A stretch of 64,000 bases of DNA. It comes from Bacteroidia bacterium (GTDB taxonomy: Bacteria; Bacteroidota; Bacteroidia; UKL13-3). The notes under the pieces are model-generated. The model was not told where the DNA came from, ran no database searches, and saw only the letters and a program-made list of their open reading frames with translations. The position numbers were made by a program, and so were the translations under genes. Shown in pieces: positions 1,945 through 41,263 of this stretch; positions within the stretch are counted from its first letter, which is position 1, and each line of letters begins with the position of its first letter. The stretch is taken from the NCBI GenBank assembly GCA_018058135.1, contig JAGPCK010000001.1, positions 60,617 through 124,616 of the forward strand, read 5' to 3'.

Positions 1945-2014
1945 CACTTCACTATATCCCAATATTGGCCTTCTTAAAAATGCACAGGTTTGATAAAGCA
2001 ACTTTATTGAATAC

Positions 2015-2704: not shown

Positions 2705-2724
2705 CCAATCTTAAATTGTGTCCA

Positions 2725-2936
2725 TTGGTTGGCAAGAGAATCCGTCACGCAATGCGAAGAAATGAAACGGAATTTTATGTTGGCCTACGGGAACACGCCC
2801 AGTTGCAGGTAGCTGGTGGCCAGTTTGTCAATACCGTTTACAAAAGCTGCGGTTCGGAGGTCTTTAATTTCGCGGTTGTGGTTACGTATGTCAAACAATT
2901 CATTGGTGGCACCAATCATGGCATCTTCTATACCTG
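2725..2936 (-). pseudogene. Partial diverged copy A of the gdh 3' end (last ~53 codons plus ~95 bp downstream), about 90% identical to 15315..15553
   Basis: Direct alignment to the true gdh terminus. It would encode ..IGATNELFDIRNHNREIKDLRTAAFVNGIDKLATSYLQLGVFP* and shares the downstream string gaagaaatgaaa.ggaattttatgttgg.cctacgggaacac. The ORF track lists the 73-aa remnant at 2785..3006. Confidence 0.8.
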
Positions 2937-3046
2937 ATACATTGGCATTGAACAAATAATTTGTCTTAAAATTAAAGAAAATGTTGGCCATTTGTATGAC
3001 CAACATTTAACTTTTGTGATGATGTGAAAAATCAGGTTCCTTTGGA

Positions 3047-6000
3047 TTACTCTACCAAAAATCTGACAGAGGCCTGTGCAGAATTGCCTAATGTTTTCAC
3101 CCGCATATAATATATACCAGCGGCAGCACCCACTGGCACCATCACCTCTGTTTGGTTGTTGACTGGTTGCGTTGAAATAAGCTGCCCGAGTGCATTGTAG
3201 ATATCTATCTGCTCAACCGGCAATGCTGAAACTACTTTCACCATATTTCTGGCCGGATTAGGGAACAGGTTTACTGTTTGTTGAGATATCTCCGCAACTC
3301 CAGATGAAAGTGCATTCACAGGTTCGCAGGATGACAAGGATGAACAACCATTCAACGTTACCTCCACCTTGTAGCTGCCGCTCACCAGCACTTTCAGGTA
3401 ACTGGAGGTTGCGCCATTCACCGGCTGATTGTTGGCACAATTCATCCACTGATAATTTGCCCCTGTTGTTTCAACTACACGAATGGTATCCTGACTCACT
3501 GAAATGGTAGCTAAGGGCAAAGGAGTTACTCCCATTTCAACCACATTGCTGGTGGCCGTTGAAGTACTTAAGCAACCCGCATTGCTGGTCATGGTGCAAC
3601 TTACCTTATCCTGATTAGCCAGACTACTGCTGCTGAATGTCGCTGCATTATTGCCTGCATTTGTACCATTTATTTTCCATTGATAGGAGGGTAAGGATCC
3701 TCCATTAACAGGGGTGGCTGTAAAGGCAACCAGCGTACCCGCACAAACATCCGAATCAGAAACAGATACAGATACTTCAGGTGTAACTGTTCCTGTGGTG
3801 AAGGTGATGAGGTTGCTTGTAGCGGCATTGGTAGTAACACATCCGGCACTGCTGGTCATGATACAACTCACTTGATCCGTTGCAGTAAGGCCGGATGAGG
3901 AGAATCCCGATGAGTCATTACCCACATTTGCGCTATTGATTCTCCATTGATAGGATGGTGTAGCACCTCCATTAACAGGGGTGGCATTGAAGTACACCGT
4001 TACCCCTGTGCACAGCACCGTTTGACTGGCCGAAATAGTGATTACTGGAGTTGATGGGGCGTTTACCGTAATGGTTACAGCTGTAGAGGTGGCATTTGTG
4101 GGACTTGCACAAGCCGCATTTGAAGTGAGCACACAGGTAACCACATCTCCATTGGCGAGTGTACTTGTTACCAGTGATGCTGCATTACTACTTGTATTAT
4201 TGCCATTTACTTTCCACTGGTAAGCCGGACTACTTCCTTCGTTGGTAACGGTTGCTGTGAAAGTAACCGACTCCCCTTGACAAATATTGGAGGATGAAGC
4301 CGAAACCGATATGGTTGGGGTTACTGCAGAGGTAACACTAACCGTAACGGCATTGCTGGTGGCCGTAGAGGAGGTAAGGCAACTTGCATTGCTCGTCATT
4401 ACACACGTAATCTGGTCGCCATTCGTCAGGTTATTCACCACAAAACTGTCGGCATTGGTGCCTGTGTTGTTGCCATTCACTTTCCATTGATAAGATGGTG
4501 AAGTACCTCCATTGGTTGGGGTAGCATAAAACGCTACGCTTGCGCCAGAACAAATAGTCGTACTTGCTGAGGTGACACTTACCGAAGGTGTGATTGACTG
4601 GGTGGTGAGTGTAATGGCATTGCTGGTGGATGTGGTGGTGGTAACACAAGCTGCGTTGCTGGTCATCACACAGGTTACCTGATCGTTGTTTGAAAAAGTA
4701 TTTGATGCAAAGGTGGCTTGATTGGCGCCTGCATTATTCCCATTTACTTTCCATTGATAAGACGGTGAAGCACCTCCGTTTGATGGTGTTGCTGTAAAAG
4801 TAACCGTTGCACCGCTGCAAATAGAAGTCTGACTGGCTGTAATACTCACCGTTGGTGTAGTAACTGATTGCACCGTCATGGTTACTGCATTTGAAGTAAC
4901 GTTCATAGGGTTTGCACATGCAGCCGAAGAAGTAACCACGCAGGTTACTACCTGACCATTGGTGAGGCTGCTTGTTGTAAAAGAGGCACTGTTTGTTCCC
5001 GCATTCACTGTATCTGTTTTCCATTGATAAGATGGGCTTACTCCTCCATTGGTTACAGTTGCATTAAATGTTGCACTAGCACCACTACAAATAGTGGTCT
5101 GCTGTGTGTTGATACTTACAGAAGGAGTTACATTGGCATTTACAGTAACAGTGATTGTATTGCTGGTGGCGGTAGAGGTGGTAAGGCAACTGGCATTGCT
5201 GGTCATCGCACAAGTTACCTGATCATTATTGGCCAGTGTAGTTGAGGTAAATGTTGCCGAGTTAGTACCAACATTGTTCCCATTCACTTTCCATTGATAA
5301 GAAGGTGCCGTACCTCCATTTGTTGGGGAAGCCGTGAACGTAACAGAGGTACCCGCACACAAAGTAGCACTGCCTGTACTAATGTTTAGTGAAGGTGTTA
5401 TAGACTGGGTGGTCATGGTGATGACATTGCTTGTAGCTGTGGCAGAAGTAACACAACTTGCACTGCTGGTCATTACACAACTTACCTGATCATTATTCGC
5501 TAATGTATTTGTTGAAAATGTAACTGAGTTGGTACCTGCATTGTTCCCGTTAATTTTCCATTGGTAAGATGGGGTTGTTCCTCCGTTGGAAGGTGTAGCT
5601 GTAAACGTAACTGTGACCCCTGAACAAATAGATGTCTGACTTGCCGTAATACTTACCGATGGTGTAACAGGCTGGGAAACTGTTACAGTAATCTGATTTG
5701 AAACAGCCAATGAAGGAATGGGACAAGGCAGGCTCGACACCATGGTACATCTAATGGAATCACCAGTAGCCAGATTTGATGGCGTGTAGGTGGCAGAGTT
5801 GGTGCCAACATTTGTTCCGTTTCGTTTCCACTGAAACACCGGACTCGTTCCTCCATTGGTGGGATTTGCCGTGAAGGTTACCTGACTGCCTGCACATACT
5901 GTAGTTTGTGAAGCACTGATTTGAACGGAAACATTCACGGTAGCCGAAGAAGTAACATTTAAACTGGCTGCAGAGGAGTTTCCACATGAGTTCACTGCAC

Positions 6001-8701
6001 GAACTGTAATGGTACCTCCGCTTGTACCCGGAGTAAGCGTTATGCTGTCGTTGGTAGATGTACCTGTCCACCCGGCAGGTCGTGTCCATGAATAAGAAGA
6101 GGCTCCGTTAACAGGAGTTGTGTAATACAATTTGGGGGAGAGTGCACATGTGCTCGTATCGCCATAAATAGCACCGGGTGCAGCAGGTGTTGTATTAACG
6201 GTGAGGGTAGCAGACGATGATGTGTCTGAACCTTCGGGACTGTAGCCAATACATCGGAATAAATGTCCGCCCATGGCAAGCGTAACTCCCGTAACCACTA
6301 CGCTACTGCTATTGGTTCCGCTGTACACACTCGAATTTTTCAGATGTACAAATCCTCCGCCACTATCAATTTGCCACTGATAAAAAGCAGTGGCGGAAGC
6401 CGTGAGAGTGACACTAAACGTTGCGTTAAGTCCAACACAGGCACTCACCGATGTAGGGTTTCCGATAGAAGGATTAAAATTAGAATAGGTATAACAGCTA
6501 TTATAAGTGCTTGCATTGGTGGTATTGCCTGTACCCAACTGACCGCTGGTATTTAACCCTGAAAGACAATTTTGGTTACGGTTAGTTTTTATTATCCCGC
6601 TAAAACCGGCACCAGCCGTAACGGCCTGTACTTGGGAGGCATTGTTAACCGGAAAAATTCTGCCGGTTGTAGAGTTATCCCCCAACTGACCATAGGTGTT
6701 TGCGCCCCAACCCCAACCACTGCCGGTATTGCGTATGGCGATACAAAAATCAGCTCCGGCATCAACATCCATCCAGCACGTATCATTGGTTGGTGTTTTG
6801 GTTACAATTTTAATTGGTGTGGTTCGGGTTACTGTTGTGCTGTCACCCAATTGTCCATTGCTGTTTAATCCCCAACTCCATAATGAACCATCGCAACGTA
6901 AACCCACAGAATGCGAGTTACCCCCGCTGGCTTTAAGCCATAGTGCTGATGTGCCAATTTGTGCCGGTGCAGTTCTGTCGGTGGTTGCGCCATCGCCCAG
7001 TTGCGAACTGTTGTTGCGTCCCCAGGCCCAGATGGTGCCGTTTGATCTTACTGCGAGACTATGGTCTAATCCTGTAGCAATACTTACCCATGAATTTGCC
7101 GTTCCAATCTGTATAGGTGCAGTGCGGGTGGTAACAGTTCCATCACCCAGTTGTCCATAGGTATTTCTACCCCAGGCCCACAAGGTACCATCTGAACGAA
7201 GTCCCAGGCTATGATTGTCGCCTGCAGCAATGGCTACCCAATTATTTGCTGTTCCAATTTGAAGAGGAACACTCTTATTTACTGTTGTACCATCACCTAA
7301 TTGACCAAATGTATTTTTGCCCCAGGCCCATAAGGTACCATCAGCTCTGATGCCGAGCGAAAAGGAACTTCCTGTTGCTACACATTTCCAATTAGACGCT
7401 GTGCCGATGGTAACACGGGTAAGTCTGTTGGTAGAAGAAGCATCACCCAACTCTCCAGATGAATTTTGCCCCCAGGCCAGCAGCCTGCCACTGTTTGCTA
7501 TCATCAGGTTGTGAGCATAGCCTGAAGCATGTTCTACCCAACCAAAGCTAGTGCTTACCGGAACAAAATATGAAAAACTACTGGTTGATCCTTTACCCAA
7601 TTGACCTACCGCACTGGTGCCTGCTCCATTCAACACACCGTTTGCCTGCAAGGCAAATGAAAAACCATCCCCAATTGTAATGGCTACTACATTTAAAAAA
7701 TTTATTGCTTGAACAAATGAAGTTCTGCCAGCAACCGTTCCATCGGCCAATTGTCCATCGTTGTTGTTACCCGAACCCCACACCGTTCCATCTGCTTTTA
7801 ATGCAAGCGTATGTGAAGCACCTGCCTGCACCATTACCCATGTGCTTAAAGAACCTATCTGATAATAACCGTTGGTTACATTGCCTGTACCCAACTGACC
7901 CCAACTGTTGCTACCCCACCCCCACAAAGTACCATTGCTTTTGATACCCATGCTGTGTTGTTCTCCAGCCGATACTTGTACCCAGTTATTATCTGTACCA
8001 ACCTGCACAGGAGTTACATTTGTTGTAGCCGTGCCTGTGCCGAGTTTATTGAATATATTGTCGCCCCAACCCCATAAGGTACCGTTTGACTTAATGGCAA
8101 GTGAATGTGTATAGCCTGCCGTGATATAAATCCAGTCGTTGGCAGTACCTAAGCGAACCGGTGCATTTCTGTTGGTAGTTGAACCATCACCCACCTGACC
8201 ATTGTTGTTAAATCCCCACCCCCATAAACTGCCGTCAGCTTTTAGTGCAAGCGAGTGCCCATTGCCTGCTGCCACACTAATCCAATCATTGGCGGTACCA
8301 ATGCGCACCGGAAAACTGCGGCTGGTAGTAGAGCCATCACCCACCTGACCGTAGTTGTTTCTTCCCCAACCCCACAAACTGCCATCAGCTCGAACGGCTA
8401 GTGAATGCGAAATGCCCGCACTCACTACACTCCAGTTGGTGGCTGAGCCAATTTTTTTTGGCGCCAGTCTGTTAGTTGTGCTGCTATCTCCCAATTGTCC
8501 AAAGTCGTTTTTACCCCAGGCCCATAACTCGCCTCTGCGCACCTCCAAACAAAAAGCATTACCTGCATCTGCACGCTGTGCTGCCACATTGCAAGAGCCT
8601 GATTTCTGAATATTGCGCCTCGATGCCTGTGCCCACACATCAGTTGTGGCCAGAAACATAAGTAATGTATGCAACAACAAATATTTTCTAATCCCTTTCA
8701 T
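3047..8701 (-). CDS. 1884-aa secreted T9SS cargo. Signal peptide, RCC1-type beta-propeller repeats, about 10 tandem Ig-like repeats (YQW(K/R)xNG ... C ... C), a pre-CTD Ig-like module, and a type A T9SS C-terminal sorting domain.
   Basis: N-terminus MKGIRKYLLLHTLLMFLATTDVWAQ. RCC1 signatures repeat as WGWGxNxxGQLGDGST, e.g. WAWGKNDFGQLGDSST and WGWGRNNYGQVGDGST. Roughly 95-aa repeats such as SPSYQWKVNGNNVGTNSATF...DQVTCxMTSNASC recur at about 70% aa identity. The C-terminus LFPNPARNMVKVV...GIYYMRVK is a Por_Secre_tail. Confidence 0.85.
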   Translation of the reverse strand: MKGIRKYLLLHTLLMFLATTDVWAQASRRNIQKSGSCNVAAQRADAGNAFCLEVRRGELWAWGKNDFGQLGDSSTTNRLAPKKIGSATNWSVVSAGISHSLAVRADGSLWGWGRNNYGQVGDGSTTSRSFPVRIGTANDWISVAAGNGHSLALKADGSLWGWGFNNNGQVGDGSTTNRNAPVRLGTANDWIYITAGYTHSLAIKSNGTLWGWGDNIFNKLGTGTATTNVTPVQVGTDNNWVQVSAGEQHSMGIKSNGTLWGWGSNSWGQLGTGNVTNGYYQIGSLSTWVMVQAGASHTLALKADGTVWGSGNNNDGQLADGTVAGRTSFVQAINFLNVVAITIGDGFSFALQANGVLNGAGTSAVGQLGKGSTSSFSYFVPVSTSFGWVEHASGYAHNLMIANSGRLLAWGQNSSGELGDASSTNRLTRVTIGTASNWKCVATGSSFSLGIRADGTLWAWGKNTFGQLGDGTTVNKSVPLQIGTANNWVAIAAGDNHSLGLRSDGTLWAWGRNTYGQLGDGTVTTRTAPIQIGTANSWVSIATGLDHSLAVRSNGTIWAWGRNNSSQLGDGATTDRTAPAQIGTSALWLKASGGNSHSVGLRCDGSLWSWGLNSNGQLGDSTTVTRTTPIKIVTKTPTNDTCWMDVDAGADFCIAIRNTGSGWGWGANTYGQLGDNSTTGRIFPVNNASQVQAVTAGAGFSGIIKTNRNQNCLSGLNTSGQLGTGNTTNASTYNSCYTYSNFNPSIGNPTSVSACVGLNATFSVTLTASATAFYQWQIDSGGGFVHLKNSSVYSGTNSSSVVVTGVTLAMGGHLFRCIGYSPEGSDTSSSATLTVNTTPAAPGAIYGDTSTCALSPKLYYTTPVNGASSYSWTRPAGWTGTSTNDSITLTPGTSGGTITVRAVNSCGNSSAASLNVTSSATVNVSVQISASQTTVCAGSQVTFTANPTNGGTSPVFQWKRNGTNVGTNSATYTPSNLATGDSIRCTMVSSLPCPIPSLAVSNQITVTVSQPVTPSVSITASQTSICSGVTVTFTATPSNGGTTPSYQWKINGNNAGTNSVTFSTNTLANNDQVSCVMTSSASCVTSATATSNVITMTTQSITPSLNISTGSATLCAGTSVTFTASPTNGGTAPSYQWKVNGNNVGTNSATFTSTTLANNDQVTCAMTSNASCLTTSTATSNTITVTVNANVTPSVSINTQQTTICSGASATFNATVTNGGVSPSYQWKTDTVNAGTNSASFTTSSLTNGQVVTCVVTSSAACANPMNVTSNAVTMTVQSVTTPTVSITASQTSICSGATVTFTATPSNGGASPSYQWKVNGNNAGANQATFASNTFSNNDQVTCVMTSNAACVTTTTSTSNAITLTTQSITPSVSVTSASTTICSGASVAFYATPTNGGTSPSYQWKVNGNNTGTNADSFVVNNLTNGDQITCVMTSNASCLTSSTATSNAVTVSVTSAVTPTISVSASSSNICQGESVTFTATVTNEGSSPAYQWKVNGNNTSSNAASLVTSTLANGDVVTCVLTSNAACASPTNATSTAVTITVNAPSTPVITISASQTVLCTGVTVYFNATPVNGGATPSYQWRINSANVGNDSSGFSSSGLTATDQVSCIMTSSAGCVTTNAATSNLITFTTGTVTPEVSVSVSDSDVCAGTLVAFTATPVNGGSLPSYQWKINGTNAGNNAATFSSSSLANQDKVSCTMTSNAGCLSTSTATSNVVEMGVTPLPLATISVSQDTIRVVETTGANYQWMNCANNQPVNGATSSYLKVLVSGSYKVEVTLNGCSSLSSCEPVNALSSGVAEISQQTVNLFPNPARNMVKVVSALPVEQIDIYNALGQLISTQPVNNQTEVMVPVGAAAGIYYMRVKTLGNSAQASVRFLVE
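3420..6320. repeat. Tandem ~290 bp coding repeats (the Ig-like units) inside the 3047..8701 gene
   Basis: About 10 repeat units are visible at protein level. Several are near-identical at nucleotide level, for example the SPSYQWKVNGNN units. Coordinates are approximate. Confidence 0.7.
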
Positions 8702-8726
8702 GACTTTATATTTTAATCACTTACTA

Positions 8727-10463
8727 TTAATTGCTCACTTTACAAAACCGGATATACGCAATACCATCATTGCCTTTTACTTGCAGGTAATAGACTCCGG
8801 GCTGCAATGCAGACACGTCAATAGATTTTGTGTGGGACATGCTTTTTTCATATGTCCTTCCTTCCATAGTTAAGATGGTAACATGTTGAACAGGAAAATT
8901 GGCCGATACCTGCAACCAATTCGTCACAGGGTTTGGATATACGCTTACGCGAAGGTTTGATGCTTCTGCAATTCCCGTGGCCGGATATGAAATACAAAGG
9001 CTCGTATCAATACAACCGCCCTGATTTATCACAACACAATAAGAACCTATGGTTGGTGGAAGAAATTCTTTAGATGTTGCCCCTGAAACAGGACTATACC
9101 CATTCCCACAATCCAGCCACTGATAGCTTGCCCTGTCCTGTTCTGAAATGAGCCTTCCTGACTGATAACTTACCTGTTTATTATTGATTCCTGTACATGT
9201 GCTGATAATCTGCAAGGCTACCAAATCCATATCCGAATTTTCGAACACATGACCTCCAATGATCAAACGGTTATTGCCAATAGCGTACATTCCTATAGTT
9301 TTTGTAGTCAAAGCGCTTGGAGAATAAATAGCAATAGAGGTATCCCTGAAACCATTGTCGCGGCTACCATCGGGAAGTAGTTTTCCAACGGCCATATAAC
9401 TGTTCCAACCATTAATTTGCTGAATATTTCCTGCATAATAAATATGGCCAGTGGCATCGGAGTGTAAACCATTCACCGCACCTGAATATCCAGATGGGTA
9501 GGTGAATGTCCCGCTATCTGCAAACAATGTATCGAGCGTTCCGTTGTTATTGAATCTTGACACCATCAAGTCATACCCATTTGCAGTGGCCACTCTACCT
9601 CCAACCAATATTTTGCCATCCGCTTGCAACAGCAGGCGATAGGCGTTAGAAGGTAGTGAATGAAATGCATGAAACCCTTTGGCGTTAAATGATGAATCAG
9701 GCTCACCACTTGCATGTAATTGAGCGAGCATCAAGACTTCAATTCCTGAAGTCAAACTTTGATTAATGTCACCAACTACCAGCATCTTACCTGAAGGAAG
9801 CAACTGCACATCATGTATACTTTTCCTTCTGCCTTTTTCTGACATTGGAACATACTTTAAGCCGGCATTCCCAAATGTAGCATCAGGTGTAGCATTGGGT
9901 AGTAAACGTAAAAGAAAAGCCGATGAGTCGGCCCTGCGGCCACCTTCACCGCCAATCAGAATTTTGTTGCCCGGTAATATGCGCAACACCCTATAGTTTG
10001 CATCAGGAACCTGTAACTGGTAATGGCCGCTCCCCTGGTTAAAACTTGTATCTAACGACCCATTAACATGGTACCTGCGTATAAACCATAAAAAAGCACT
10101 CTGCGAAACATAACCTCCCAACACAACAATTTTCCCATCCGATTGTATGCCTATATGACGAAATGAATCGTCATTATCGTTATTATACCTCACCTGTCCG
10201 TTTGTCCCGAAAGCACTGTCTGGTTTTCCATCGCTGGTAAAGCGGGCGAGTACGGCATCCGATCCCAGAACACCATTGTTAATTCTTCCGGCAATTAGCA
10301 CTTTATTATCCTGTTGAACCGCCACACTAAAACACTCATCATACCCCTGCACCTTCAGGTAAGCATAACCCGATTCTCCAAAACCCATATCTGGCAAACC
10401 TGATTGGGCAAACAATGCAATATTGAAAAAAAGTGTACTTAGAATAAATAGAAATGACTTCAT
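8727..10463 (-). CDS. Delta-60 repeat beta-propeller protein with pre-CTD Ig-like module and T9SS type A C-terminal sorting domain
   Basis: Signal peptide MKSFLFILSTLFFNIALFAQ, starting at the ATG at 10463. The track's 10496 start is a TTG. Delta-60-type motifs recur: NGSLDTSFN, PDATFGNAG, PDSSFNAKG, NGTLDTLFADSG. C-terminus VYPNPVTNWLQVS...GVYYLQVK. The gene ends 25 bp upstream of the start of the 1884-aa gene, so the two are probably co-transcribed. Confidence 0.8.
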   Translation of the reverse strand: MKSFLFILSTLFFNIALFAQSGLPDMGFGESGYAYLKVQGYDECFSVAVQQDNKVLIAGRINNGVLGSDAVLARFTSDGKPDSAFGTNGQVRYNNDNDDSFRHIGIQSDGKIVVLGGYVSQSAFLWFIRRYHVNGSLDTSFNQGSGHYQLQVPDANYRVLRILPGNKILIGGEGGRRADSSAFLLRLLPNATPDATFGNAGLKYVPMSEKGRRKSIHDVQLLPSGKMLVVGDINQSLTSGIEVLMLAQLHASGEPDSSFNAKGFHAFHSLPSNAYRLLLQADGKILVGGRVATANGYDLMVSRFNNNGTLDTLFADSGTFTYPSGYSGAVNGLHSDATGHIYYAGNIQQINGWNSYMAVGKLLPDGSRDNGFRDTSIAIYSPSALTTKTIGMYAIGNNRLIIGGHVFENSDMDLVALQIISTCTGINNKQVSYQSGRLISEQDRASYQWLDCGNGYSPVSGATSKEFLPPTIGSYCVVINQGGCIDTSLCISYPATGIAEASNLRVSVYPNPVTNWLQVSANFPVQHVTILTMEGRTYEKSMSHTKSIDVSALQPGVYYLQVKGNDGIAYIRFCKVSN

Positions 10464-10628
10464 AAGCTGTGTTTTTGATAGCAAAATTAAGAGCAAGTAA
10501 GGGCAGGCACTTATACTTGTAATTCAACTTACCATTCGGCACATAAACGAGGACAATAGGTCGTTTTTTTTGTAAATCCGTACTGGTCATTTGAACCGGA
10601 TAATGAAAAACCATTGTTTCTTTGCAAC

Positions 10629-13520
10629 ATGGTGATTACACCGAAGGCTTTTCTTTTCGCAGGTTTGATGCTTTTTGTTTTCAGCACAGCATTGTGCCAG
10701 GTTAACTACAAAAACCTGACACGTGCACACGGACTTTCATCAGACAATGTATATTTTAGTTTATGCGACTCCAAAGGACTAATGTGGTTTGGAACCGATA
10801 ATGGCGTTTGTCGATATGATGGAGCGGAGTTCAAAATTTTTGATATTGATGATGGCATTACCGACAACGAAGTATTCAGAATATTTGAAGACTCCAAAGG
10901 GCGCATCTGGATACTACCTTACAACGGACAACTTTGTTTTATCCTCAATAACCAGGTTTATCATACGGGGAATACACCATGGCTGCGTGGGTTTAATAAC
11001 AAAGACTTCTTTACCGACATGGTTGAAGATGGTGAAGGCAACATCTGGTTTTTTAAGGAACAAAATCAAGAGTTCTGCATATTGGAAAACAATCTACAGG
11101 TAAAATATGGTTCACTGCCATTTAAATCATTCTATAATAACCATGTATTGTTACACGGAATCCACTACATTTTTTACAACACCAAAATCGCTAAGAAAAA
11201 GTGGGTGTACACCGTGGCCATGCTCAACCGGGAACTGAAACCCTTGACAACTTGCAGCACTAATCTATACTGCCGTTACTTTTTTACGCACCAGGATTCA
11301 CTTCGGTTTGGATGCTTTTTCGATGACAAGGAAGAAGACAATCGGATGATAAGCAGCAACAGCATTAACTTTGAAAAGGCCATTCGTGAAAAAGTGAACC
11401 CTATTTCTTTGCTTGGAAGTAGAAAAATAAATGATGCGGCATCCTTATTTCACAACCTTATTTTAACTTCTGAAAATGGCGCAATCTTGATTAAACCTCA
11501 TGAACAAGAAACATGGTTACCCGGAATTTTTGTATCTTCTGTTTCCATTGATAAAGAGAACGGAGTGTGGCTCACCACTAAAAACAATGGCGTATTTTAC
11601 TATCCGGCAAGCCTTACCAAACCCGTTCACTCCATCACCGACCCAATTTACCTGATCAAACAAAATCCGCTAAAACCACAGGAACTTTATGCAGCCAGTA
11701 ATTCCTTTATTTACCGATTGAATGGTAAAAAAACTGAAAAAATAAGTTTACCAGCATTTGTCGGTAAAAATGAACCCATCAGTGATATTATTTTTCTTAA
11801 CAATGGACACTTGGTATTGAGCAACGGAAACGGAGTATATTTTTACAATGGAAAAAAATTCCAACTTTCAGAAGGGAAGGCAGGTACCAAACAAATGTTG
11901 TATATGAACGACACGCTTTACTTTGCTCGTTCAAACAGTATTACCCTACAAGCGGCTGCTACTCTGCTCCAGCCTTACGATTTACACCATCCATTATTTA
12001 TCCAACTACATAACAACCGGGCATTGTGTTTGGTGCCTGCCAATCAGAATGAGTTTCTTTTCGGAAACAATTTTGGCGCATGGCGAATCAGCAAAACTGG
12101 CAAAACGGTTCATATTCCCGGCATTCAAAACCGCATTCACCGCATAGCTGTTTCTCCCAAAAGTTACACCGCTTATTGCTCAGACATTAATGGTGTATAC
12201 ATTCAATACAAAAATGAGCTGCATCATTACACCAACCAAAACGGTTTAACCAGCAACAGCGTTACATCAGCCTGCTTTGATGCCAACAACAACCTTTGGG
12301 TTGCAACGCCTAATGGCATCTCGCGCATTCATACCAAAACCCATAATGTAATCAACTACCACCTGTTCAGTGGAAACCGGGATGAAAAAATATACGACCT
12401 TTATTTAAACTCCGACACCACACTGCTATTGGCCACCGGCAGCGGATTGTTTGAATTTAACACCACACAAAAACCGTCTGATACCAAACCGGATATTATT
12501 ATCACGCAAATCAAAGTAAACGGACAAAACAGGGAACTCTCTACAATGGCTTCCCTTTCATCTGTTGAAAATACTATTGAAATTGCTCTTACTGCCATCT
12601 CCTATGCATTGCCACAACCCGATTTCTTTTACAGAATAGGGGGAAACGGTTCGCAATGGCAGAAAATCAGTGGCCGGGTACTCACCTTTGCCAACCTGCC
12701 TTCGGGGAGCTATGATATTCACATCCGCTGCAAAAGTATAAATGGATTATGGAGCAACACAAGAGCCATACACTTTGAAATTCATGCGCCTATTTATAAA
12801 AAATGGTGGTTTATGTGGAGCACTCTTGCAGTGCTTGCTTCCACCATAGTGCTTATCATTTACCATTGGCAAAAACGCATTCGTAAAAACAAAGAAATTG
12901 AGTTACTCCTGTCGGAAACACGACAGAAAGCCATGAGGGCACAGTTAAATCCGCACTTCGTTTTTAACGCACTCAACTCTATCCAGTTTTTGTACATGAG
13001 TCACCGCGAAGAACAGGCCATTGAATACCTGAATAAATTTTCAGTAGTACTTAGAAATATTCTTAAGCATGCCGAACAAACTTACATCCGCATTGACGAA
13101 GAAATTGAAAACATCAGAAGTTACCTTGACATAGAACAACTTAGGCTGAATGACAGGTTCACCTATTCCATTGAAACAGCCAACGAAATCGACCCCTATG
13201 CATGCCTCATCCCATCCATGCTCCTCCAGCCCTTTATAGAAAATTCCATCTGGCATGGCTTTAAAGGAATCAACTATATAGGTATGATTGATATCCGCAT
13301 CGCAAAACACAATGAACAATACCTTACCATCACCATCAGCGACAACGGTGTAGGTTTCGACACAACAGTGGCTCCCGACCCTTCCGTTTCAAAAGGAAGG
13401 CACCTGATAGAAAACAGAATTGCTGCACTCAACAAACTCAATAAACTGCCCATTCGTGTAAATACAGCAAGCACTAAGTCGGGTACCATCATCCATATTT
13501 TATTCCCTATTCAATACTGA
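10629..13520 (+). CDS. Sensor histidine kinase, LytS/YehU type: periplasmic two-component-regulator propeller repeats plus Y_Y_Y domain, one transmembrane segment, His_kinase (PF06580-like) and HATPase_c
   Basis: Signal MVITPKAFLFAGLMLFVFSTALCQ at the ATG at 10629; the track's 10614 is a TTG. It has the transmembrane segment WWFMWSTLAVLASTIVLIIY, the H-box LNPHFVFNALNSIQFL, the N-box IENSIWHG and the G1 box SDNGVGF. Confidence 0.85.
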   Translation: MVITPKAFLFAGLMLFVFSTALCQVNYKNLTRAHGLSSDNVYFSLCDSKGLMWFGTDNGVCRYDGAEFKIFDIDDGITDNEVFRIFEDSKGRIWILPYNGQLCFILNNQVYHTGNTPWLRGFNNKDFFTDMVEDGEGNIWFFKEQNQEFCILENNLQVKYGSLPFKSFYNNHVLLHGIHYIFYNTKIAKKKWVYTVAMLNRELKPLTTCSTNLYCRYFFTHQDSLRFGCFFDDKEEDNRMISSNSINFEKAIREKVNPISLLGSRKINDAASLFHNLILTSENGAILIKPHEQETWLPGIFVSSVSIDKENGVWLTTKNNGVFYYPASLTKPVHSITDPIYLIKQNPLKPQELYAASNSFIYRLNGKKTEKISLPAFVGKNEPISDIIFLNNGHLVLSNGNGVYFYNGKKFQLSEGKAGTKQMLYMNDTLYFARSNSITLQAAATLLQPYDLHHPLFIQLHNNRALCLVPANQNEFLFGNNFGAWRISKTGKTVHIPGIQNRIHRIAVSPKSYTAYCSDINGVYIQYKNELHHYTNQNGLTSNSVTSACFDANNNLWVATPNGISRIHTKTHNVINYHLFSGNRDEKIYDLYLNSDTTLLLATGSGLFEFNTTQKPSDTKPDIIITQIKVNGQNRELSTMASLSSVENTIEIALTAISYALPQPDFFYRIGGNGSQWQKISGRVLTFANLPSGSYDIHIRCKSINGLWSNTRAIHFEIHAPIYKKWWFMWSTLAVLASTIVLIIYHWQKRIRKNKEIELLLSETRQKAMRAQLNPHFVFNALNSIQFLYMSHREEQAIEYLNKFSVVLRNILKHAEQTYIRIDEEIENIRSYLDIEQLRLNDRFTYSIETANEIDPYACLIPSMLLQPFIENSIWHGFKGINYIGMIDIRIAKHNEQYLTITISDNGVGFDTTVAPDPSVSKGRHLIENRIAALNKLNKLPIRVNTASTKSGTIIHILFPIQY

Positions 13521-13521
13521 T

Positions 13522-14268
13522 ATGATTAAAGCATTGGTTATAGATGATGAACAAATGGCGCGCGACACCATTGAACTGTTCATTAAAAAATATACCCCCG
13601 ACATACAACTCATTGGCAAAGCAGGCTCGGTAACAGAAGGTGTGCGGCTCATACAGCAAACCCCGCCCGACATTTTATTTCTCGATATCAACATGCCTGA
13701 GAAAAAGGGGTTCGCTATATTTGACGAGATTGATCTGAGTCATATCAAAGTAATTTTTACCACTGCATACAGTGAATATGCCATCAAGGCCATCAACCTC
13801 TCAGCAAGTTACTACCTGCTTAAACCCATCTCTCCGGTAGAATTTAAAAAAGCTGTAGAAAAAACACTCGAAAAAATAAATCAACAGGTTTCTGATGTAA
13901 ACACCATTGCTTTTTTGAAAAACCTGATTGGACAAAACCAGCCCCATCCCAAACAACTACTCATCAACATCAGGCAGGGATATGAGCTCATCAAAACAGA
14001 AGAGATCATGTACCTCGAGGGTGAAAAAAATTATACCTGGATTCACCATTCAGATAAAAAACACCTAGTGGCTAAGCCACTCAAAGATTACGAAGAATTC
14101 CTCGACCCAGGTCAATTTTTCCGCATACACCAATCATTTCTCATCAACCGCCATTTCATCAAAAAAATTTACAACACCAAACCCGATCAGGTGGAACTTC
14201 ACAACAACACCCGCATCAACATCTCGCGCGACAAAAAAAGAAAATTTATTGAGTGGCTGGAACGGTAA
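13522..14268 (+). CDS. LytTR-family response regulator (REC + LytTR DNA-binding domain)
   Basis: MIKALVIDDEQ..DILFLDINMP receiver, and a C-terminal LytTR domain (IMYLEGEKNYTWIHHSDKKHLVAKPLKDYEEFLDPGQFFRIHQSFLIN). Its start lies 1 nt after the kinase stop. Confidence 0.9.
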   Translation: MIKALVIDDEQMARDTIELFIKKYTPDIQLIGKAGSVTEGVRLIQQTPPDILFLDINMPEKKGFAIFDEIDLSHIKVIFTTAYSEYAIKAINLSASYYLLKPISPVEFKKAVEKTLEKINQQVSDVNTIAFLKNLIGQNQPHPKQLLINIRQGYELIKTEEIMYLEGEKNYTWIHHSDKKHLVAKPLKDYEEFLDPGQFFRIHQSFLINRHFIKKIYNTKPDQVELHNNTRINISRDKKRKFIEWLER

Positions 14269-14315
14269 AATGAAAGTTACTTAAACAGAAATAAAATCTA
14301 ATTGTATGCCTCCCT

Positions 14316-14393
14316 GCTACGGGAACACACCCAGTTGCATGTAGCTGGTGGCCAGTTTGTCAATACCGTTTACAAAAGCTGCAATGCGCAGGT
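14316..14393 (-). repeat. Partial copy B of the gdh 3' end, ~78 bp
   Basis: ctacgggaacacacccagttgca.gtagctggtggccagtttgtcaataccgtttacaaaagctgc..tgcgcaggtc matches 15391..15470 almost exactly and then diverges. Confidence 0.8.
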
Positions 14394-14460
14394 CGCGGGG
14401 ACGTCAAACACGGGCAATTGTAGCTAATGGTATAACACGCTGCTACAAATATGAACATTA

Positions 14461-15297
14461 CTAAAGGCTAGGTATGCCAGTTTCATCTGTAAAAATACGG
14501 GGTACTACTCTAATTATTTTCTCCTCCTTCCGTTCATTTTTCTCAAACCCTCTTTTTTTTACTTTAGGCTCAATTAAGGTTTCTTCTTCATAAGAATTTG
14601 AAATAAATAAAGGAATACACTCTGGCTCAAACTGTACTGTGTATGTTAAAAAATCAATTTTGCTTGAAGTCAATCTTTTATCATACGCACTAGAGTCAGA
14701 GCATAATATATCTATTGATTTGAATATTGCAACGCGTAAGTTATGATTATTTATTTGAACAGAATCGTAAGTGATTCTTTTTTTTCCCTTAATATGTTTG
14801 AAATCGTATGGATTACATATTTCGATTAAGTTCATTTCTCTGTAGAAATAATTGCAAGATAATCTTACTTCGAATTTATATTGTGAGAATGGCATTACTT
14901 TGACAAACTTATACCAATCAAATGCATCGTAAAGATGCATTATTTTTTTACCTGATGATATATAAAAGTGACCATAGGTTGGTGTAATTGATAAAAAATA
15001 TTCCTTGCTGTAAAAATCATATTGATGAACCACCGGTGAGTAATTATATATTGCTTCATCAATCATTCCTGTATATAGGTAATTTACTTCTTGAGTATTA
15101 TTTACTATTAAAAAAGTGTTAACACTATCATTATTGTCGTCTTTTAAGTAAATAAGATGAACTCCTTCAGTGTAATTTGAATCAAGCCCTTCTTTCGCAA
15201 CTATCGTTTCACATCCATGTGTCTGGGCAAATGCATTTATCCCAAGGCTAATCTGCAGACAACACAAAAAAATATAGACTAATTTATTATACCTCAT
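14461..15297 (-). CDS. Hypothetical secreted protein, very AT-rich (single-gene islet between gdh copies B and C)
   Basis: ATG at 15297 gives MRYNKLVYIFLCCLQISLGINAFAQ, a signal peptide. The track's longer 15447 start runs into the gdh 3' end and is spurious. I recognise no domain. Base composition is sharply lower in GC than the neighbours. Confidence 0.55.
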   Translation of the reverse strand: MRYNKLVYIFLCCLQISLGINAFAQTHGCETIVAKEGLDSNYTEGVHLIYLKDDNNDSVNTFLIVNNTQEVNYLYTGMIDEAIYNYSPVVHQYDFYSKEYFLSITPTYGHFYISSGKKIMHLYDAFDWYKFVKVMPFSQYKFEVRLSCNYFYREMNLIEICNPYDFKHIKGKKRITYDSVQINNHNLRVAIFKSIDILCSDSSAYDKRLTSSKIDFLTYTVQFEPECIPLFISNSYEEETLIEPKVKKRGFEKNERKEEKIIRVVPRIFTDETGIPSL

Positions 15298-15400
15298 GTC
15301 AATAATATTATTGTCTTTGGTTGGCGAAGACGGCAACCACGGACTAAGAAGGGGATCCATCACGCAAACAGAAGAAATGAAATGGAATTTTATGTTGGGC

Positions 15401-16825
15401 CTACGGGAACACACCCAGTTGCAGGTAGCTGGTGGCCAGTTTGTCAATACCGTTTACAAAAGCTGCTGTGCGCAGGTCTTTGATTTCGCGGTTGTGGTTG
15501 CGTATGTCAAACAGTTCATTGGTGGCACCAATCATGGTATCTTCTAAACCTGAGCGCACCAAATCAATTTCATCGGCACCGTGAATGAGTATGCTTTTTT
15601 GTTTTGCATCAACGCTATTGCCGGTTAACTGTTCAATGGTATCTACCAGTCTGCGCATGGCACCTTCTTCAAACCTTCGCTCCATACGTCCGAAACGTAC
15701 GTGCGACAAATTGCGCAACCATTCAAAGTAGGACACCGTTACACCACCTGCATTCAGGTATAAATCGGGCAGCAACATGATGTTACGCTCCAACAGAATT
15801 TTTTCTGCTGCGAAAGTTGTGGGGCCGTTAGCACCCTCAGCAATTACTTTGGCTTTTATGCGGGGCGCATTTTCATGAGTTATCTGGTTTTCCAGGGCAG
15901 CGGGTATTAACACATCGCATTCCTGTTCCAGTAATTCCATCGAATTGGTGAAATTTTTTGCACCCGGAAAATCAAGTATGGAACGTGTGTTTTTGCGGTG
16001 CTGAAATACTTCTTCTACATCCAGGCCATCGGCATTATATATTCCACCTTCATATTCGGCAATGCCTACTATAACGGCACCACCTTCCTGACAAAATTTG
16101 GCTGCGTAGTAACCTACATTACCTAAACCTTGTACTATAATCCGCTTGCCTTCTATGCCCGTGGTGAGACCTATTTTAGTCATCTCTTCCTTGTTGCTCA
16201 GGCACTCGCGAATACCGTAAAAAATACCCAGACCTGTGGCTTCTGTGCGGCCGTTAATTCCGCCTTGTCCAACGGGTTTTCCTGTTACGCAACCCAGCGC
16301 ATTAATATCATCGGGTTTAAAGGCAGCGTAAGTATCGGCAATCCAGGCCATCTCACGTGGTCCGGTGCCATAATCAGGAGCAGGCACATCTACAGCCGGG
16401 CCAATCATGTCTCTGCGAATTAATTCCGTGGCAAACCTGCGGGTTATTTTCTCCAATTGTGCGGGTGAATATTTTTTGGGGTCCACCTTTACTCCACCTT
16501 TGGCACCTCCAAAAGGTACGTTTACAACGGCACATTTAAATGTCATGAGCGTTGCTAAGGCTTTTACCTCGTCCACGTCTACCATTTCGCTGAACCGAAT
16601 ACCGCCTTTTACGGGTGTTTTATGCTGGCTGTGCTGAACGCGGATGCCTTCAAACACTTCAATATTCTCTCCTATTTTTACCGGAAAATTAGTCACGTAA
16701 ACACTGTTGCAGATTTTGATTTGTTCCAGCAAACCCTTGTCGTGCTTAGTATAGCGTGCAGCATTGTCGAAATAGTGCAGTACATCGTTGTAAAAACCAA
16801 GACCTGCATTTTTAGCGTGGCTCAT
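15401..16825 (-). CDS. gdhA: Glutamate dehydrogenase (Glu/Leu/Phe/Val dehydrogenase family)
   Basis: 474 aa, ..VNVPFGGAKGGVKVDPKKYSPAQLEKITRRFATEL.. and GLGNVGYYAAKF (Rossmann fold). ATG at 16825. Confidence 0.9.
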   Translation of the reverse strand: MSHAKNAGLGFYNDVLHYFDNAARYTKHDKGLLEQIKICNSVYVTNFPVKIGENIEVFEGIRVQHSQHKTPVKGGIRFSEMVDVDEVKALATLMTFKCAVVNVPFGGAKGGVKVDPKKYSPAQLEKITRRFATELIRRDMIGPAVDVPAPDYGTGPREMAWIADTYAAFKPDDINALGCVTGKPVGQGGINGRTEATGLGIFYGIRECLSNKEEMTKIGLTTGIEGKRIIVQGLGNVGYYAAKFCQEGGAVIVGIAEYEGGIYNADGLDVEEVFQHRKNTRSILDFPGAKNFTNSMELLEQECDVLIPAALENQITHENAPRIKAKVIAEGANGPTTFAAEKILLERNIMLLPDLYLNAGGVTVSYFEWLRNLSHVRFGRMERRFEEGAMRRLVDTIEQLTGNSVDAKQKSILIHGADEIDLVRSGLEDTMIGATNELFDIRNHNREIKDLRTAAFVNGIDKLATSYLQLGVFP

Positions 16826-18938: not shown

Positions 18939-18941
18939 CTG

Positions 18942-19049: not shown

Positions 19050-19132
19050 TTAGCTTGGGAGAGTATTGCCGATTTTAGGCATATAATGAGACCTACCCCC
19101 TTAAGCTGTTTTTGTAAGCTTTTGCTAAATTA

Positions 19133-19834: not shown

Positions 19835-19846
19835 TTAAACTTTTAA

Positions 19847-40656: not shown

Positions 40657-41263
40657 GTCACAATTACATCTTGACGGACTTAAATATCAGCTTAGCCAGC
40701 ACTTCATTTTTAATGTAATGAATACCCTGCGTGTTCTTATACGCAAGGAACCTGAGCAAGCCACAACAATGCTGAATACCTTCAGCGAATATCTTCGTTT
40801 TGCTCTGCATAAAACAACCGAATTCACTTCAACACTGGAAAATGAGCTTGCCGGAATTGAACTGTTCATTCGTTTGCAGGAGTTGCGTTTTAAAAAGCAA
40901 ATCCTTCTCGTTAAAACTATTTCTCCCGAAACACTTTGTAAAGAAATACCCGCATTTATTCTACAGCCTTTTGTTGAACAATTACTCAAGTTTTCTCAAC
41001 CTGAAAAAGAAATTAATATTACTTACATCAACTTTGCTGCTGAAACTATCGACAACAGGTTTGAAATTAAACTTTCCTGTAGGCCGGTTCCCGTCAAAAA
41101 CAACACTTCTGATCGTGTAACTTTTTCACCTAAAAGTGATGCAGAGCAAGGCGTAGAAAAAGCGCTGGAGTTGTGTAGGACAATATTTGGTGACACGTTC
41201 GGGTATGATTCAGTACAGGGAAAAAACGAGCATATAATAACCTTCACATTACCTATAAAATAA
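40646..41263 (+). CDS. Membrane-less LytS-type His_kinase-domain protein with degenerate ATP-binding boxes (possible pseudokinase or phosphotransfer partner)
   Basis: 205 aa with the H-box LSQHFIFNVMNTL (PF06580-like). The N-box reads VEQLLKF instead of the expected ENxxxHG, and no DNGxG G1 box is present. No transmembrane segment. Its start overlaps the upstream kinase by 11 bp, and its stop overlaps the LytTR regulator start (TAATG). Confidence 0.65.
   Translation: MKNKSQLHLDGLKYQLSQHFIFNVMNTLRVLIRKEPEQATTMLNTFSEYLRFALHKTTEFTSTLENELAGIELFIRLQELRFKKQILLVKTISPETLCKEIPAFILQPFVEQLLKFSQPEKEINITYINFAAETIDNRFEIKLSCRPVPVKNNTSDRVTFSPKSDAEQGVEKALELCRTIFGDTFGYDSVQGKNEHIITFTLPIK

What the first reader, a model, noticed from the sequence alone, without database searches (positions are those of the whole stretch)
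3047..14268. Parallel module on the gdh island: a LytS-type Y_Y_Y/propeller kinase and LytTR regulator transcribed divergently from an operon of two T9SS cargo proteins
Both large cargo loci in this window are paired with a LytS-type kinase plus a LytTR regulator (10629..14268 and 40646..42003). Here the sensor is a periplasmic propeller/Y_Y_Y type. The pair shares the 10464..10628 intergenic region with the delta-60-protein and RCC1/Ig-protein operon. This suggests LytTR regulators are the dedicated switches for giant adhesin-like T9SS cargo in this organism.

The 1884-aa protein is itself unusual: it fuses eukaryote-like RCC1 propellers to about 10 Ig-like repeats and a T9SS tail.
Basis: inference. 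Interest (0 to 1): 0.55.

Follow-up and report, generated by a model that had tools for sequence, protein, structure and literature searches.

The report
Mobile sensor-regulator and T9SS cargo cassette
In an uncultured Bacteroidia bacterium, an ordinary sensor kinase and regulator pair sits back-to-back with two genes for large secreted surface proteins, and all four genes are present or absent together between strains as one 11-kb block, which suggests but does not prove that the pair controls those proteins.

Summary
Genes 3047-8701(-) and 8727-10463(-) encode T9SS cargo. The first has 14 RCC1 blades, 10 Ig/PKD repeats and a type A CTD. The second is a delta-60 propeller with a CTD. They are transcribed divergently, across 165 bp, from a Reg_prop/Y_Y_Y + PF06580 kinase (10629-13520) and a REC-LytTR regulator (13522-14268).

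The proposed motif test fails: the two promoter regions share nothing above shuffles, and 10464-10628 has no LytTR-type direct repeats.

Three other lines favour a real local link:
- The kinase's only close homolog (36% identity) is also divergent from a propeller/PKD cargo gene.
- In 81 loci of this kinase family, CTD genes fill 14/137 adjacent positions against 13/459 distant ones (odds ratio 3.9, p=8e-4).
- The four genes lie exactly between two copies of the gdh 3' end. Two related lineages lack the block; eight strain contigs place it directly next to gdh.

The claim that LytTR regulators are the dedicated cargo switches is not supported. Four other cargo genes in the window have no LytTR neighbour, about 80% of family members have no adjacent cargo, and the best RCC1-cargo homolog sits by a NarL-type system. 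The RCC1/Ig/T9SS fusion is not unusual.

Overall this is a new member of known kinds, of modest interest.

The parts
2734..2937 (-). Copy A of the gdh 3' end: last 51 codons, stop, and a 52-nt tail. Left boundary of the module.
   Evidence: Direct repeat of 15349-15553 (94% over 156 nt, 86% over 50 nt). Also matches the single gdh end of the empty-site contigs.
2979..3008 (-). Terminator-like hairpin (13-bp stem then a T-rich tail), 39 nt after the stop of the RCC1 gene.
3047..8701 (-). T9SS cargo 2, 1884 aa: signal peptide, 14 RCC1 blades, 10 Ig/PKD-like repeats, type A CTD.
   Evidence: Pfam, repeat count, TIGR04183 at 40.9 bits, DNA-level periodicities of 150 and 267-270 bp.
8727..10463 (-). 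T9SS cargo 1, 578 aa: signal peptide, DUF5122/delta-60 propeller, Cys-rich segment, type A CTD. It lies 25 bp upstream of cargo 2, so the two are probably one operon.
   Evidence: No terminator was found between the genes.
10464..10628 (.). Shared divergent control region, 165 bp. Contains a Bacteroidota-type -7 box, TAATTTTG, at 10489..10482 on the - strand, 19-26 nt before the cargo ATG. No LytTR-type direct repeat was detected.
10629..13520 (+). Sensor histidine kinase, 963 aa: periplasmic Reg_prop/Y_Y_Y sensor, one TM, PF06580 dimerisation/His domain, and an ATPase domain with intact H, N and G1 boxes.
   Evidence: PDB matches are 4A2L/3V9F for the sensor and 6SWJ for the kinase core.
13522..14268 (+). 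Response regulator, 248 aa: REC + LytTR. Its start lies 2 nt after the kinase stop.
   Evidence: Pfam. Receiver residues are invariant in alignment A5. Best NCBIfam matches are BtsR and LytR, both below the equivalog cut-offs.
14317..14394 (-). Copy B of the gdh 3' end: last 26 codons and stop. Right boundary of the module. In eight strain contigs this copy is the actual end of gdh.
14461..15297 (-). Second small cassette: a 278-aa exported protein of unknown function, lying between copies B and C. It is absent from eight strain contigs that carry the module.
15349..15553 (-). Copy C: the functional 3' end of gdh (stop at 15401-15403) plus a 52-nt tail.
   Evidence: The gdh gene is 15401-16825(-).

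Best explanation
The region is a self-contained, strain-variable cassette of about 11.4 kb (2938-14316), inserted at the 3' end of gdh. It carries an orthodox two-component system and a two-gene operon of T9SS-secreted surface proteins.

Shown:
- The kinase has a periplasmic double-propeller/Y_Y_Y sensor of the kind that binds glycans in Bacteroides hybrid sensors, fused to an intact LytS/YehU-type kinase core.
- Its partner is a REC-LytTR regulator.
- The two operons diverge from a 165-bp region that holds a Bacteroidota -7 box for the cargo operon.
- The four genes are bounded by duplicated gdh 3' ends. The block is absent from two related lineages and adjoins gdh directly on eight strain contigs.

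Inferred:
- An extracytoplasmic ligand, possibly a polymer or glycan, activates the kinase.
- The kinase phosphorylates the LytTR regulator.
- The regulator binds in 10490-10628 and switches on the delta-60/RCC1 cargo operon, and probably its own operon.
- The products are then exported by the T9SS and displayed on the cell surface.

The link is local to this cassette and to a minority subset of this kinase family. It is not a general rule for LytTR regulators or for T9SS cargo.
For: 1. Anatomy and intact catalytic residues.
2. The operon is bounded by a -7 box at 10489..10482(-) and a terminator at 3008..2979(-).
3. The module lies exactly between gdh 3' copies A and B.
   - Contigs L171 (97-98% identity) and L184 (93-94%) are empty sites: gdh, a small ORF, AHSA1, then FeoAB.
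   - Eight contigs carry regulator, kinase and cargo directly after gdh.
4. The only close kinase homolog (P0002, 36% identity) is likewise divergent from a BNR-propeller + 7x PKD_6 + CTD gene. The next-best relatives lie beside FG-GAP+CTD, S41+CTD and PKD/Ig proteins.
5. Family-wide enrichment in 81 loci:
   - CTD genes fill 14/137 positions next to the kinase/regulator unit against 13/459 at four or more genes away (odds ratio 3.9, p=8e-4).
   - The rate decays with distance: 10%, 8%, 4%, then 3%.
   - Pfam recovered the same 14 adjacent hits, and PF18962 was the only recurrent C-terminal family (14 members against 3 or fewer for any other). The distant sample gave 9/150.
6. Both layouts seen in the window recur elsewhere: divergent, and kinase-regulator-cargo on one strand.
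7. One sister locus (L021) has an exact 14-bp repeat, CTGCCACCTGCACA, twice at 21-bp spacing in front of its cargo gene. This is the classic LytTR operator geometry.
Against: - No LytTR-type direct repeat exists in 10464-10628: 0 pairs at 7/9 or better for spacings of 17-24 bp, against a shuffle mean of 2.4.
- No motif is shared with the second locus or with L007.
- Cargo genes are dense here (7 of 45 ORFs), so adjacency alone is weak evidence.
- 67 of 81 family loci have no CTD gene at a flanking position. Large non-CTD neighbours are heterogeneous and include TonB-dependent receptors and alpha-2-macroglobulins.
- Being transferred together does not prove regulation.
- The ligand, the operator and the direction of control are all inferred.
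Confidence: 0.55

Rival explanations
1. The adjacency has no regulatory meaning. The two-component system controls itself or distant genes, and it sits next to cargo genes only because T9SS cargo genes are very dense in this genome and because variable cassettes pile up at the same hot spot.
For: - 7 of 45 ORFs in the window carry a CTD, which gives roughly a 0.1 chance that both LytTR units have a cargo neighbour.
- No LytTR box and no shared motif were found.
- About 80% of family members have no adjacent cargo gene.
- The gdh-AHSA1 gap holds unrelated cassettes in different strains, with ORFs of 118, 154, 229 and 278 aa.
- Cargo homologs sit by other regulator types or by none.
Against: - Enrichment of CTD genes at flanking positions is 3- to 4-fold, with decay over distance.
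- The nearest kinase homolog keeps the divergent layout although its cargo is different.
- The repeats enclose exactly these four genes, not the cargo alone or the two-component system alone.
Confidence: 0.3
2. One reading: LytTR regulators as a class are the dedicated switches for giant adhesin-like T9SS cargo in this organism.
For: - Two of two LytTR regulators in the window flank large cargo genes.
- The trend in the sample found with the second regulator points the same way (3/49 against 2/143).
Against: - The CTD genes at 20756-21979, 28324-30519, 33565-34209 and 57065-58408 have no LytTR neighbour.
- The second regulator's three closest relatives (L090-L092, 42-44% identity) have no adjacent CTD cargo.
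- Enrichment in that sample is not significant (p=0.11).
- The same-architecture RCC1 cargo P0215 is paired with a HisKA_3 kinase and a NarL-type regulator.
- There is no shared operator.
Confidence: 0.1
3. The cargo is an input rather than an output. One of the secreted propeller proteins, or its CTD, is sensed by the periplasmic propeller domain of the kinase, as the CTD protein PorA signals to PorY in Porphyromonas gingivalis.
For: - Precedent in PMC12152298 and PMC7712824, found.
- The sensor and both cargo proteins are beta-propeller proteins exposed to the periplasm during export.
Against: There is no direct evidence. The kinase family is mostly found without adjacent cargo, and PorY is an unrelated kinase type.
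Confidence: 0.05

Closest known systems
Bacteroides hybrid two-component systems with Reg_prop/Y_Y_Y periplasmic sensors (e.g. BT4663; PDB 4A2L/4A2M, 3V9F, 3OTT/3VA6)
   Same: The periplasmic sensor is of the same fold family, with direct sequence matches (E=1e-25 to 1e-15). A single TM links it to a cytoplasmic kinase. It sits next to the genes it presumably controls.
   Different: This is not a hybrid system. It has no fused receiver or AraC output. The kinase core is PF06580 (LytS/YehU type), not HisKA. The output is a separate LytTR regulator. The neighbours are T9SS cargo genes, not a SusC/SusD polysaccharide utilisation locus.
LytS/LytR, BtsS/BtsR (YehU/YehT) and YpdA/YpdB two-component systems, and the AgrA/ComE class of LytTR regulators
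   Same: The PF06580 kinase core is paired with a REC-LytTR regulator. The best NCBIfam matches of the regulator are BtsR and LytR.
   Different: Scores are far below the equivalog cut-offs (122 against 246; 108 against 375). The sensor is a large periplasmic propeller, not a 5TM-LYT or GAF membrane domain. The direct-repeat operator at about 21-bp start-to-start spacing, typical of AgrA, ComE and BtsR (from my own knowledge), is absent from the local promoter region.
PorXY-SigP cascade of Porphyromonas gingivalis
   Same: A two-component system tied to type IX secretion. A CTD protein (PorA) takes part in the signalling (PMC7712824, PMC12152298).
   Different: PorXY controls genes of the secretion machinery, not an individual cargo operon. 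PorX is not a LytTR regulator, and PorY has no propeller sensor. No papers linking LytTR regulators to T9SS cargo were found.
RCC1-repeat and delta-60-repeat T9SS cargo proteins of Bacteroidota
   Same: The architectures match: RCC1 + Ig/PKD + PF18962 in P0215 (1900 aa, 42% identity over 74%), P0142, P0237 and Chryseobacterium P0184, and DUF5122 + PF18962 in dozens of the best 120 of 2398 hits.
   Different: There are no orthologs above 42% (RCC1) or 33% (delta-60) identity outside the species, so these are lineage-specific paralogs. No function is known for any of them.
Genomic islands integrated at the 3' end of a conserved gene with duplication of that end
   Same: Direct repeats of the target gene's 3' end flank the insert. 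Two inserts lie in tandem. Related strains show occupied and empty sites.
   Different: No integrase or other recombinase gene lies inside 2734-15553. The empty sites carry their own unrelated small ORFs rather than a clean att site. Cassette exchange by homologous recombination is therefore an equally good mechanism.

Membership tests
LytS/YehU-type histidine kinases (PF06580 core) | His_kinase (PF06580) domain with the conserved phospho-acceptor His | tested here: met
   PF06580 at E=2e-21. H776 in NPHF is invariant in a 24-sequence alignment.
LytS/YehU-type histidine kinases (PF06580 core) | ATP-binding domain with N box and G1 box | tested here: met
   N872, D905, G907 and G909 are invariant. 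The HATPase_c match is weak (E=0.007). The core matches PDB 6SWJ.
LytS/YehU-type histidine kinases (PF06580 core) | Polytopic membrane sensor (5TM-LYT) as in LytS, BtsS and YpdA proper | tested here: not met
   The sensor is a periplasmic region of about 700 aa with Reg_prop/Y_Y_Y between two TM segments. 'LytS-type' therefore applies to the kinase core only.
LytTR response regulators | Receiver domain with phospho-acceptor Asp, plus a C-terminal LytTR domain | tested here: met
   PF00072 at 3e-19 and PF04397 at 1e-19. The acidic pocket, Thr and Lys columns are invariant in A5, which includes this protein.
LytTR response regulators | Operator made of two 9-10 bp direct repeats about 12 bp apart in the controlled promoter | tested here: not met
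   In 10464-10628 there are 0 pairs at 7/9 or better for spacings of 17-24 bp, and the best 10-mer pair matches 6/10. Binding sites of Bacteroidota LytTR proteins are unknown, so this weakens the regulatory link but does not exclude it.
Bacteroides hybrid two-component systems (HTCS) | Periplasmic Reg_prop propellers plus Y_Y_Y domain | tested here: met
   PF07494 at 1e-19 and PF07495 at 1e-7. Matches 4A2L and 3V9F.
Bacteroides hybrid two-component systems (HTCS) | Fused receiver and AraC-type DNA-binding output in the same polypeptide | tested here: not met
   The protein ends after the ATPase domain, and the output is a separate LytTR protein.
T9SS type A cargo | N-terminal signal peptide and a C-terminal sorting domain above the curated threshold | tested here: met
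   TIGR04183 scores 40.9 and 43.9 bits against a cut-off of 23. PF18962 scores 27.8 and 38.3 against 27. The signal peptides were read from the translations.
T9SS type A cargo | A T9SS machinery (PorK/L/M/N, Sov, PorU/V) in the same genome | not tested
   No such genes lie in the 64-kb window, and the rest of the MAG could not be read. It is inferred from the seven CTD genes in the window.
RCC1-like propeller proteins | Seven-fold repeats of the ~50-aa RCC1 blade | tested here: met
   14 blades with a 50-aa period at residues 56-752. PF25390 at 2.5e-142 and PF00415 at 7e-119.
Site-specifically integrated genomic island | Insert flanked by direct repeats of the target gene's 3' end | tested here: met
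   Copies A, B and C of the gdh end.
Site-specifically integrated genomic island | Occupied and empty sites among close relatives | tested here: met
   L171 and L184 are empty. L172-L180 are occupied.
Site-specifically integrated genomic island | An integrase or recombinase encoded on the element | tested here: not met
   No recombinase domain was found in any ORF of 2015-15447. The nearest Phage_integrase gene is at 55626-56525.

The most novel reading that the evidence does not exclude
Propeller-sensor kinase/LytTR pairs form portable, self-regulated cassettes with T9SS surface proteins. In such a cassette, a sensor, a regulator and the adhesin-like cargo they control move together between strains into hot spots such as the gdh 3' end. 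This would give Bacteroidota a plug-in way to acquire conditionally expressed surface proteins. The 3- to 4-fold enrichment of CTD genes next to this kinase family would then mark a previously undescribed, phylum-wide class of cargo-specific regulators, distinct from PorXY.
Probability: 0.3. Interest if true: 0.5.

Novelty: new member of a known kind. Interest (0 to 1): 0.3.

Why it matters
Regulation of individual T9SS cargo genes is poorly known; the literature I could search deals with the PorXY-SigP control of the machinery. If the local link holds, this kinase family (more than 1400 members found) would offer candidate cargo-specific switches in many environmental Bacteroidota. The cassette structure would show how surface-protein repertoires vary between strains of one species. 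As it stands, every component belongs to a large, already annotated family and the regulatory step is inferred, so the practical value is a testable hypothesis plus a well-defined natural presence/absence polymorphism.

Tried and rejected
1. Shared operator between the two promoter regions. The best shared 8- to 14-mers are no better than shuffles. Rejected.
2. LytTR-type direct repeats in 10464-10628. None found. At the second locus, GTTTAAAG occurs twice at 21-bp spacing (41991 and 42012), but this is not significant (P about 0.15).
3. Footprinting against the closest kinase homolog's intergenic region (L007). Nothing above shuffles.
4. Footprinting in the sister pair L015/L035. The intergenic regions are 98% identical, so they are uninformative.
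5. Strain comparison (L170). There are only three intergenic differences, clustered at 10556-10562, so it is uninformative as a footprint.
6. Family-wide motif search.
   - A peak of 10-mer direct repeats at exactly 21-bp spacing exists, but it appears in control intergenic regions too: 7.5%, against 11% upstream of the two-component operons and 15% upstream of cargo genes.
   - It is therefore not specific.
7. Ortholog synteny from the cargo side. Neither cargo has an ortholog outside the species.
8. Horizontal-transfer signature by base composition. No anomaly.
9. Apparent pseudogenes of the kinase and the RCC1 gene in L176. These are single-base homopolymer indels and are most likely sequencing errors.
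10. Strain variation at the second locus, looked up through Rho. Only short contigs were returned.
It was repeated with 13 sequences.
12. Large non-CTD neighbours of the kinase family. They are heterogeneous, with no second recurrent partner class.
Full report
**1. What is there**

On the minus strand there are two genes, 25 bp apart.
- 8727-10463 encodes a 578-aa protein. Its real ATG is at 10463, and it begins with the signal peptide MKSFLFILSTLFFNIALFAQ. It has DUF5122 (delta-60) propeller repeats and a type A T9SS sorting domain.
- 3047-8701 encodes an 1884-aa protein with a signal peptide, 14 RCC1 blades (two 7-bladed propellers), ten Ig/PKD-like repeats of about 90 aa, and a type A sorting domain.

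A hairpin followed by a T-run sits 39 nt after the second gene. A Bacteroidota-type -7 box (TAATTTTG) lies 19-26 nt before the first ATG.

On the plus strand, 165 bp away, there are two more genes.
- 10629-13520 encodes a 963-aa kinase: signal/TM segment, about 700 periplasmic residues with Reg_prop repeats and a Y_Y_Y domain, one TM segment, a PF06580 His domain and an ATPase domain. The phospho-acceptor His, the N-box Asn and the G1 box fall in invariant columns of a family alignment.
- 13522-14268 encodes a REC-LytTR regulator with intact receiver residues.

The organism is an uncultured Bacteroidia bacterium known only from MAGs and metagenomes.

**2. The second locus cited as the parallel case**

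It exists: 40646-41263, 41263-42003 and 42113-50494. Its 'kinase', however, is a 205-aa cytoplasmic protein.
- It has a PF06580 His domain but no HATPase match.
- Gln replaces the N-box Asn, and there is no DxGxG motif.
- It is preceded by two tandem TPR-HisKA kinases.

The two LytTR regulators are only 33% identical.

**3. Is the pairing more than chance within the window?**

No. Seven of the 45 ORFs I called carry a T9SS sorting domain. The chance that both LytTR units have a cargo gene at a flanking position is therefore about 0.1. Four cargo genes (20756-21979, 28324-30519, 33565-34209 and 57065-58408) have no LytTR neighbour.

**4.

The best k-mers shared by 10464-10628 and 42004-42112 are no better than in shuffled sequences. 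The 165-bp region contains no pair of 9-mers matching at 7/9 or better at spacings of 17-24 bp, against a shuffle mean of 2.4. The exact repeat finder reports none either. The second region has GTTTAAAG twice, 21 bp apart, which is not significant (P about 0.15).

With regulators this divergent, though, a common box was not to be expected.

**5. Comparative evidence from the kinase side**

The kinase family is large: 1422 proteins at E<=1e-10. Outside the species there is only one close homolog, P0002, at 36% identity.
- Its contig shows the same divergent layout, with a different cargo protein: a BNR-type propeller, seven PKD_6 repeats and a CTD.
- Three other loci among the best-scoring relatives lie within two genes of an FG-GAP+CTD protein, an S41 peptidase+CTD protein, and a divergent 1278-aa PKD/Ig protein.

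I then took 80 family loci from species-representative genomes, plus the P0002 contig. I called ORFs, built a CTD profile from the window's cargo tails and iterated it.
- Relative to the kinase/regulator unit, CTD genes occupy 14 of 137 flanking positions, 10 of 120 at distance 2, 4 of 107 at distance 3, and 13 of 459 at distance 4 or more.
- Flanking against distant gives an odds ratio of 3.9 (p=8e-4).
- Fourteen of 81 loci have a CTD gene at a flanking position, where about 4 would be expected. Twenty of 81 have one within two genes.
- Pfam found the same 14 among the flanking C-termini, where PF18962 was the only recurrent family. It found 9 among a random 150 of the distant set, against my 8.
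- Caveats: the ORF calling is crude, one pair of loci (L015/L035) is nearly identical, and there is no phylogenetic correction.
- Both layouts seen in the window recur: divergent, and kinase-regulator-cargo on one strand.
- Large neighbours without a CTD are heterogeneous.

**6. Comparative evidence from the other sides**

The RCC1 cargo has more than 6500 relatives.
- Several combine RCC1 repeats with PF18962, including P0215 (1900 aa, 42% identity over 74% of the query, same domain order) and an annotated Chryseobacterium protein.
- P0215 is preceded by a TPR/HisKA_3 kinase and a NarL-type regulator, not a LytTR pair.
- The Chryseobacterium gene has no two-component system nearby.

The delta-60 cargo has thousands of relatives but none above 33% identity outside the species.

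Eighty metagenome loci found with the second regulator come from many phyla. In the low-GC subset, CTD genes occupy 3/49 flanking positions against 2/143 distant ones (p=0.11). The three closest relatives of that regulator have no adjacent cargo.

**7. An unexpected structural result**

The repeat finder shows three direct copies of the 3' end of gdh (gdh is 15401-16825 on the minus strand).
- Copy C, the real end, is at 15349-15553.
- Copy B, 78 bp, is at 14317-14394.
- Copy A, 204 bp, is at 2734-2937.

Copies A and B enclose exactly the terminator, the two cargo genes, the kinase and the regulator. Copies B and C enclose a single 278-aa exported protein of unknown function.

Looking up contigs that encode the identical Gdh protein gave the following.
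- Eight contigs have gdh running straight into the regulator side of the module, so copy B is their gdh end.
- One 357-kb contig (L171, 97-98% identical in the flanks) has no module at all: gdh, a 566-bp segment with a 118-aa lipoprotein-like ORF, AHSA1, FeoA and FeoB.

A contig with a different Gdh allele (L184, 93-94% identical) is also empty and has its own 154-aa ORF.

The four genes are therefore gained or lost as one block at a hypervariable spot between gdh and AHSA1. No recombinase gene lies inside the block, and base composition is unremarkable. The mechanism, site-specific integration or cassette exchange, remains open.

**8. Most likely mechanism**

I think the block is a self-contained cassette. 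The propeller/Y_Y_Y sensor detects an extracytoplasmic ligand and the PF06580 kinase phosphorylates the LytTR regulator. The regulator then activates the divergent cargo operon from the 165-bp region, and the products are exported by the T9SS.
- Shown: the anatomy, intact catalytic residues, the operon limits, absence of the block from two related lineages, the nearest homolog's layout, and the family-wide enrichment.
- Inferred: the ligand (by analogy with BT4663-type sensors), the binding site, and the direction of control.
- Confidence is 0.55.

The main rival is adjacency without a regulatory meaning in a cargo-dense, cassette-rich region (0.3). A PorA-like 'cargo as signal' reading gets 0.05 (papers found).

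**9. Comparison with known systems**

- The sensor belongs with the Bacteroides hybrid two-component sensors, but the protein is not hybrid and has a different kinase core and output.
- The kinase core and regulator belong with LytS/LytR and BtsS/BtsR. The sensor is different and the regulator scores far below the equivalog cut-offs.
- The cargo proteins are ordinary members of very large families.
- I found no paper connecting LytTR regulators with T9SS cargo. The PorXY-SigP cascade is the described T9SS regulator.

**10. Verdict**

This is a new member of known kinds. It has two modestly new aspects: a statistical association of this kinase family with T9SS cargo, and a cleanly bounded strain-variable cassette. 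Interest is 0.3.

Noticed in passing
window 2734-2937, 14317-14394, 15349-15553: Three direct copies of the gdh 3' end bound two tandem cassettes: the four-gene module, and a 278-aa exported protein. Related contigs show empty sites (L171, L184) and single-cassette sites (L172-L180).
   Followed up: yes
window 18941-19034 and 22607-22700, enclosing 19035-22606: A second block is flanked by 94-bp direct repeats (89% identical) and is absent from the 93-94% identical relative L184. It holds a WD40 propeller with a T9SS tail (20756-21979, TIGR04183 26.9 bits), a Phenol_MetA_deg-like protein and two unknowns. T9SS cargo again sits in a strain-variable cassette.
   Followed up: partly
window 36872-41263: The 'kinase' of the second locus (40646-41263, 205 aa) has the PF06580 His domain but lacks the N-box Asn and the G1 box, and it has no sensor. 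It follows two tandem TPR-HisKA kinases (36872-38764 and 38761-40656). It may be a phosphotransfer or connector protein rather than an autokinase.
   Followed up: partly
L088 461-8855: The closest same-architecture relative of the RCC1 cargo (P0215) lies directly behind a TPR/HisKA_3 kinase and a NarL/GerE regulator. Large T9SS cargo may often have a private two-component system, but of varying family.
   Followed up: partly
L021, about 109 bp upstream of its first cargo gene (between kinase and cargo): An exact 14-bp direct repeat, CTGCCACCTGCACA, occurs twice with 21-bp start-to-start spacing in front of a CTD gene that lies between the kinase and the LytTR gene. This is a good candidate LytTR operator in a sister system.
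   Followed up: partly
L007-L087, all intergenic regions: 10-mer direct repeats (9/10 or better) show a sharp peak at exactly 21-bp spacing in every class of intergenic region. In controls the count is 37 of 495, against 4-19 at any other spacing from 12 to 31. The cause is unknown; widespread LytTR sites or promoter architecture are possibilities.
   Followed up: no
window 10556-10562: The only three intergenic differences from strain L170 cluster here. They change an in-frame TAG (10557-10559) to TTG. This may explain why the kinase is called as 987 aa in several JGI contigs and 963 aa here.
   Followed up: partly
window 8727-10463 compared with L170: Between strains, the delta-60 cargo has 13 nonsynonymous and 9 synonymous codon differences. 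The kinase has 12 and 22, and the RCC1 gene has 29 and 56. This may reflect relaxed or diversifying selection, but the counts are small.
   Followed up: no
window 1944-2877: This 934-bp stretch, holding the 229-aa membrane-anchored ORF (2015-2704) and most of repeat copy A, is replaced by 118 bp in strain L170. The left edge of the module is therefore also polymorphic.
   Followed up: partly
window 41991-41998 and 42012-42019: GTTTAAAG occurs twice at 21-bp spacing, straddling the stop codon of the second LytTR gene and about 100 bp upstream of the giant cargo gene. The geometry is right for a LytTR site, but it is not significant by shuffling (P about 0.15).
   Followed up: partly
L176 7501-17578: The kinase and RCC1 genes appear fragmented on this contig. 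All breaks are single-base indels in homopolymer runs, so they are most likely sequencing errors rather than pseudogenes.
   Followed up: yes
window 3537-8536: The RCC1 gene carries DNA-level periodicities of 150 bp (RCC1 blades) and 267-270 bp (Ig/PKD repeats) at 60-76% identity. These are old internal duplications, not recent ones.
   Followed up: no
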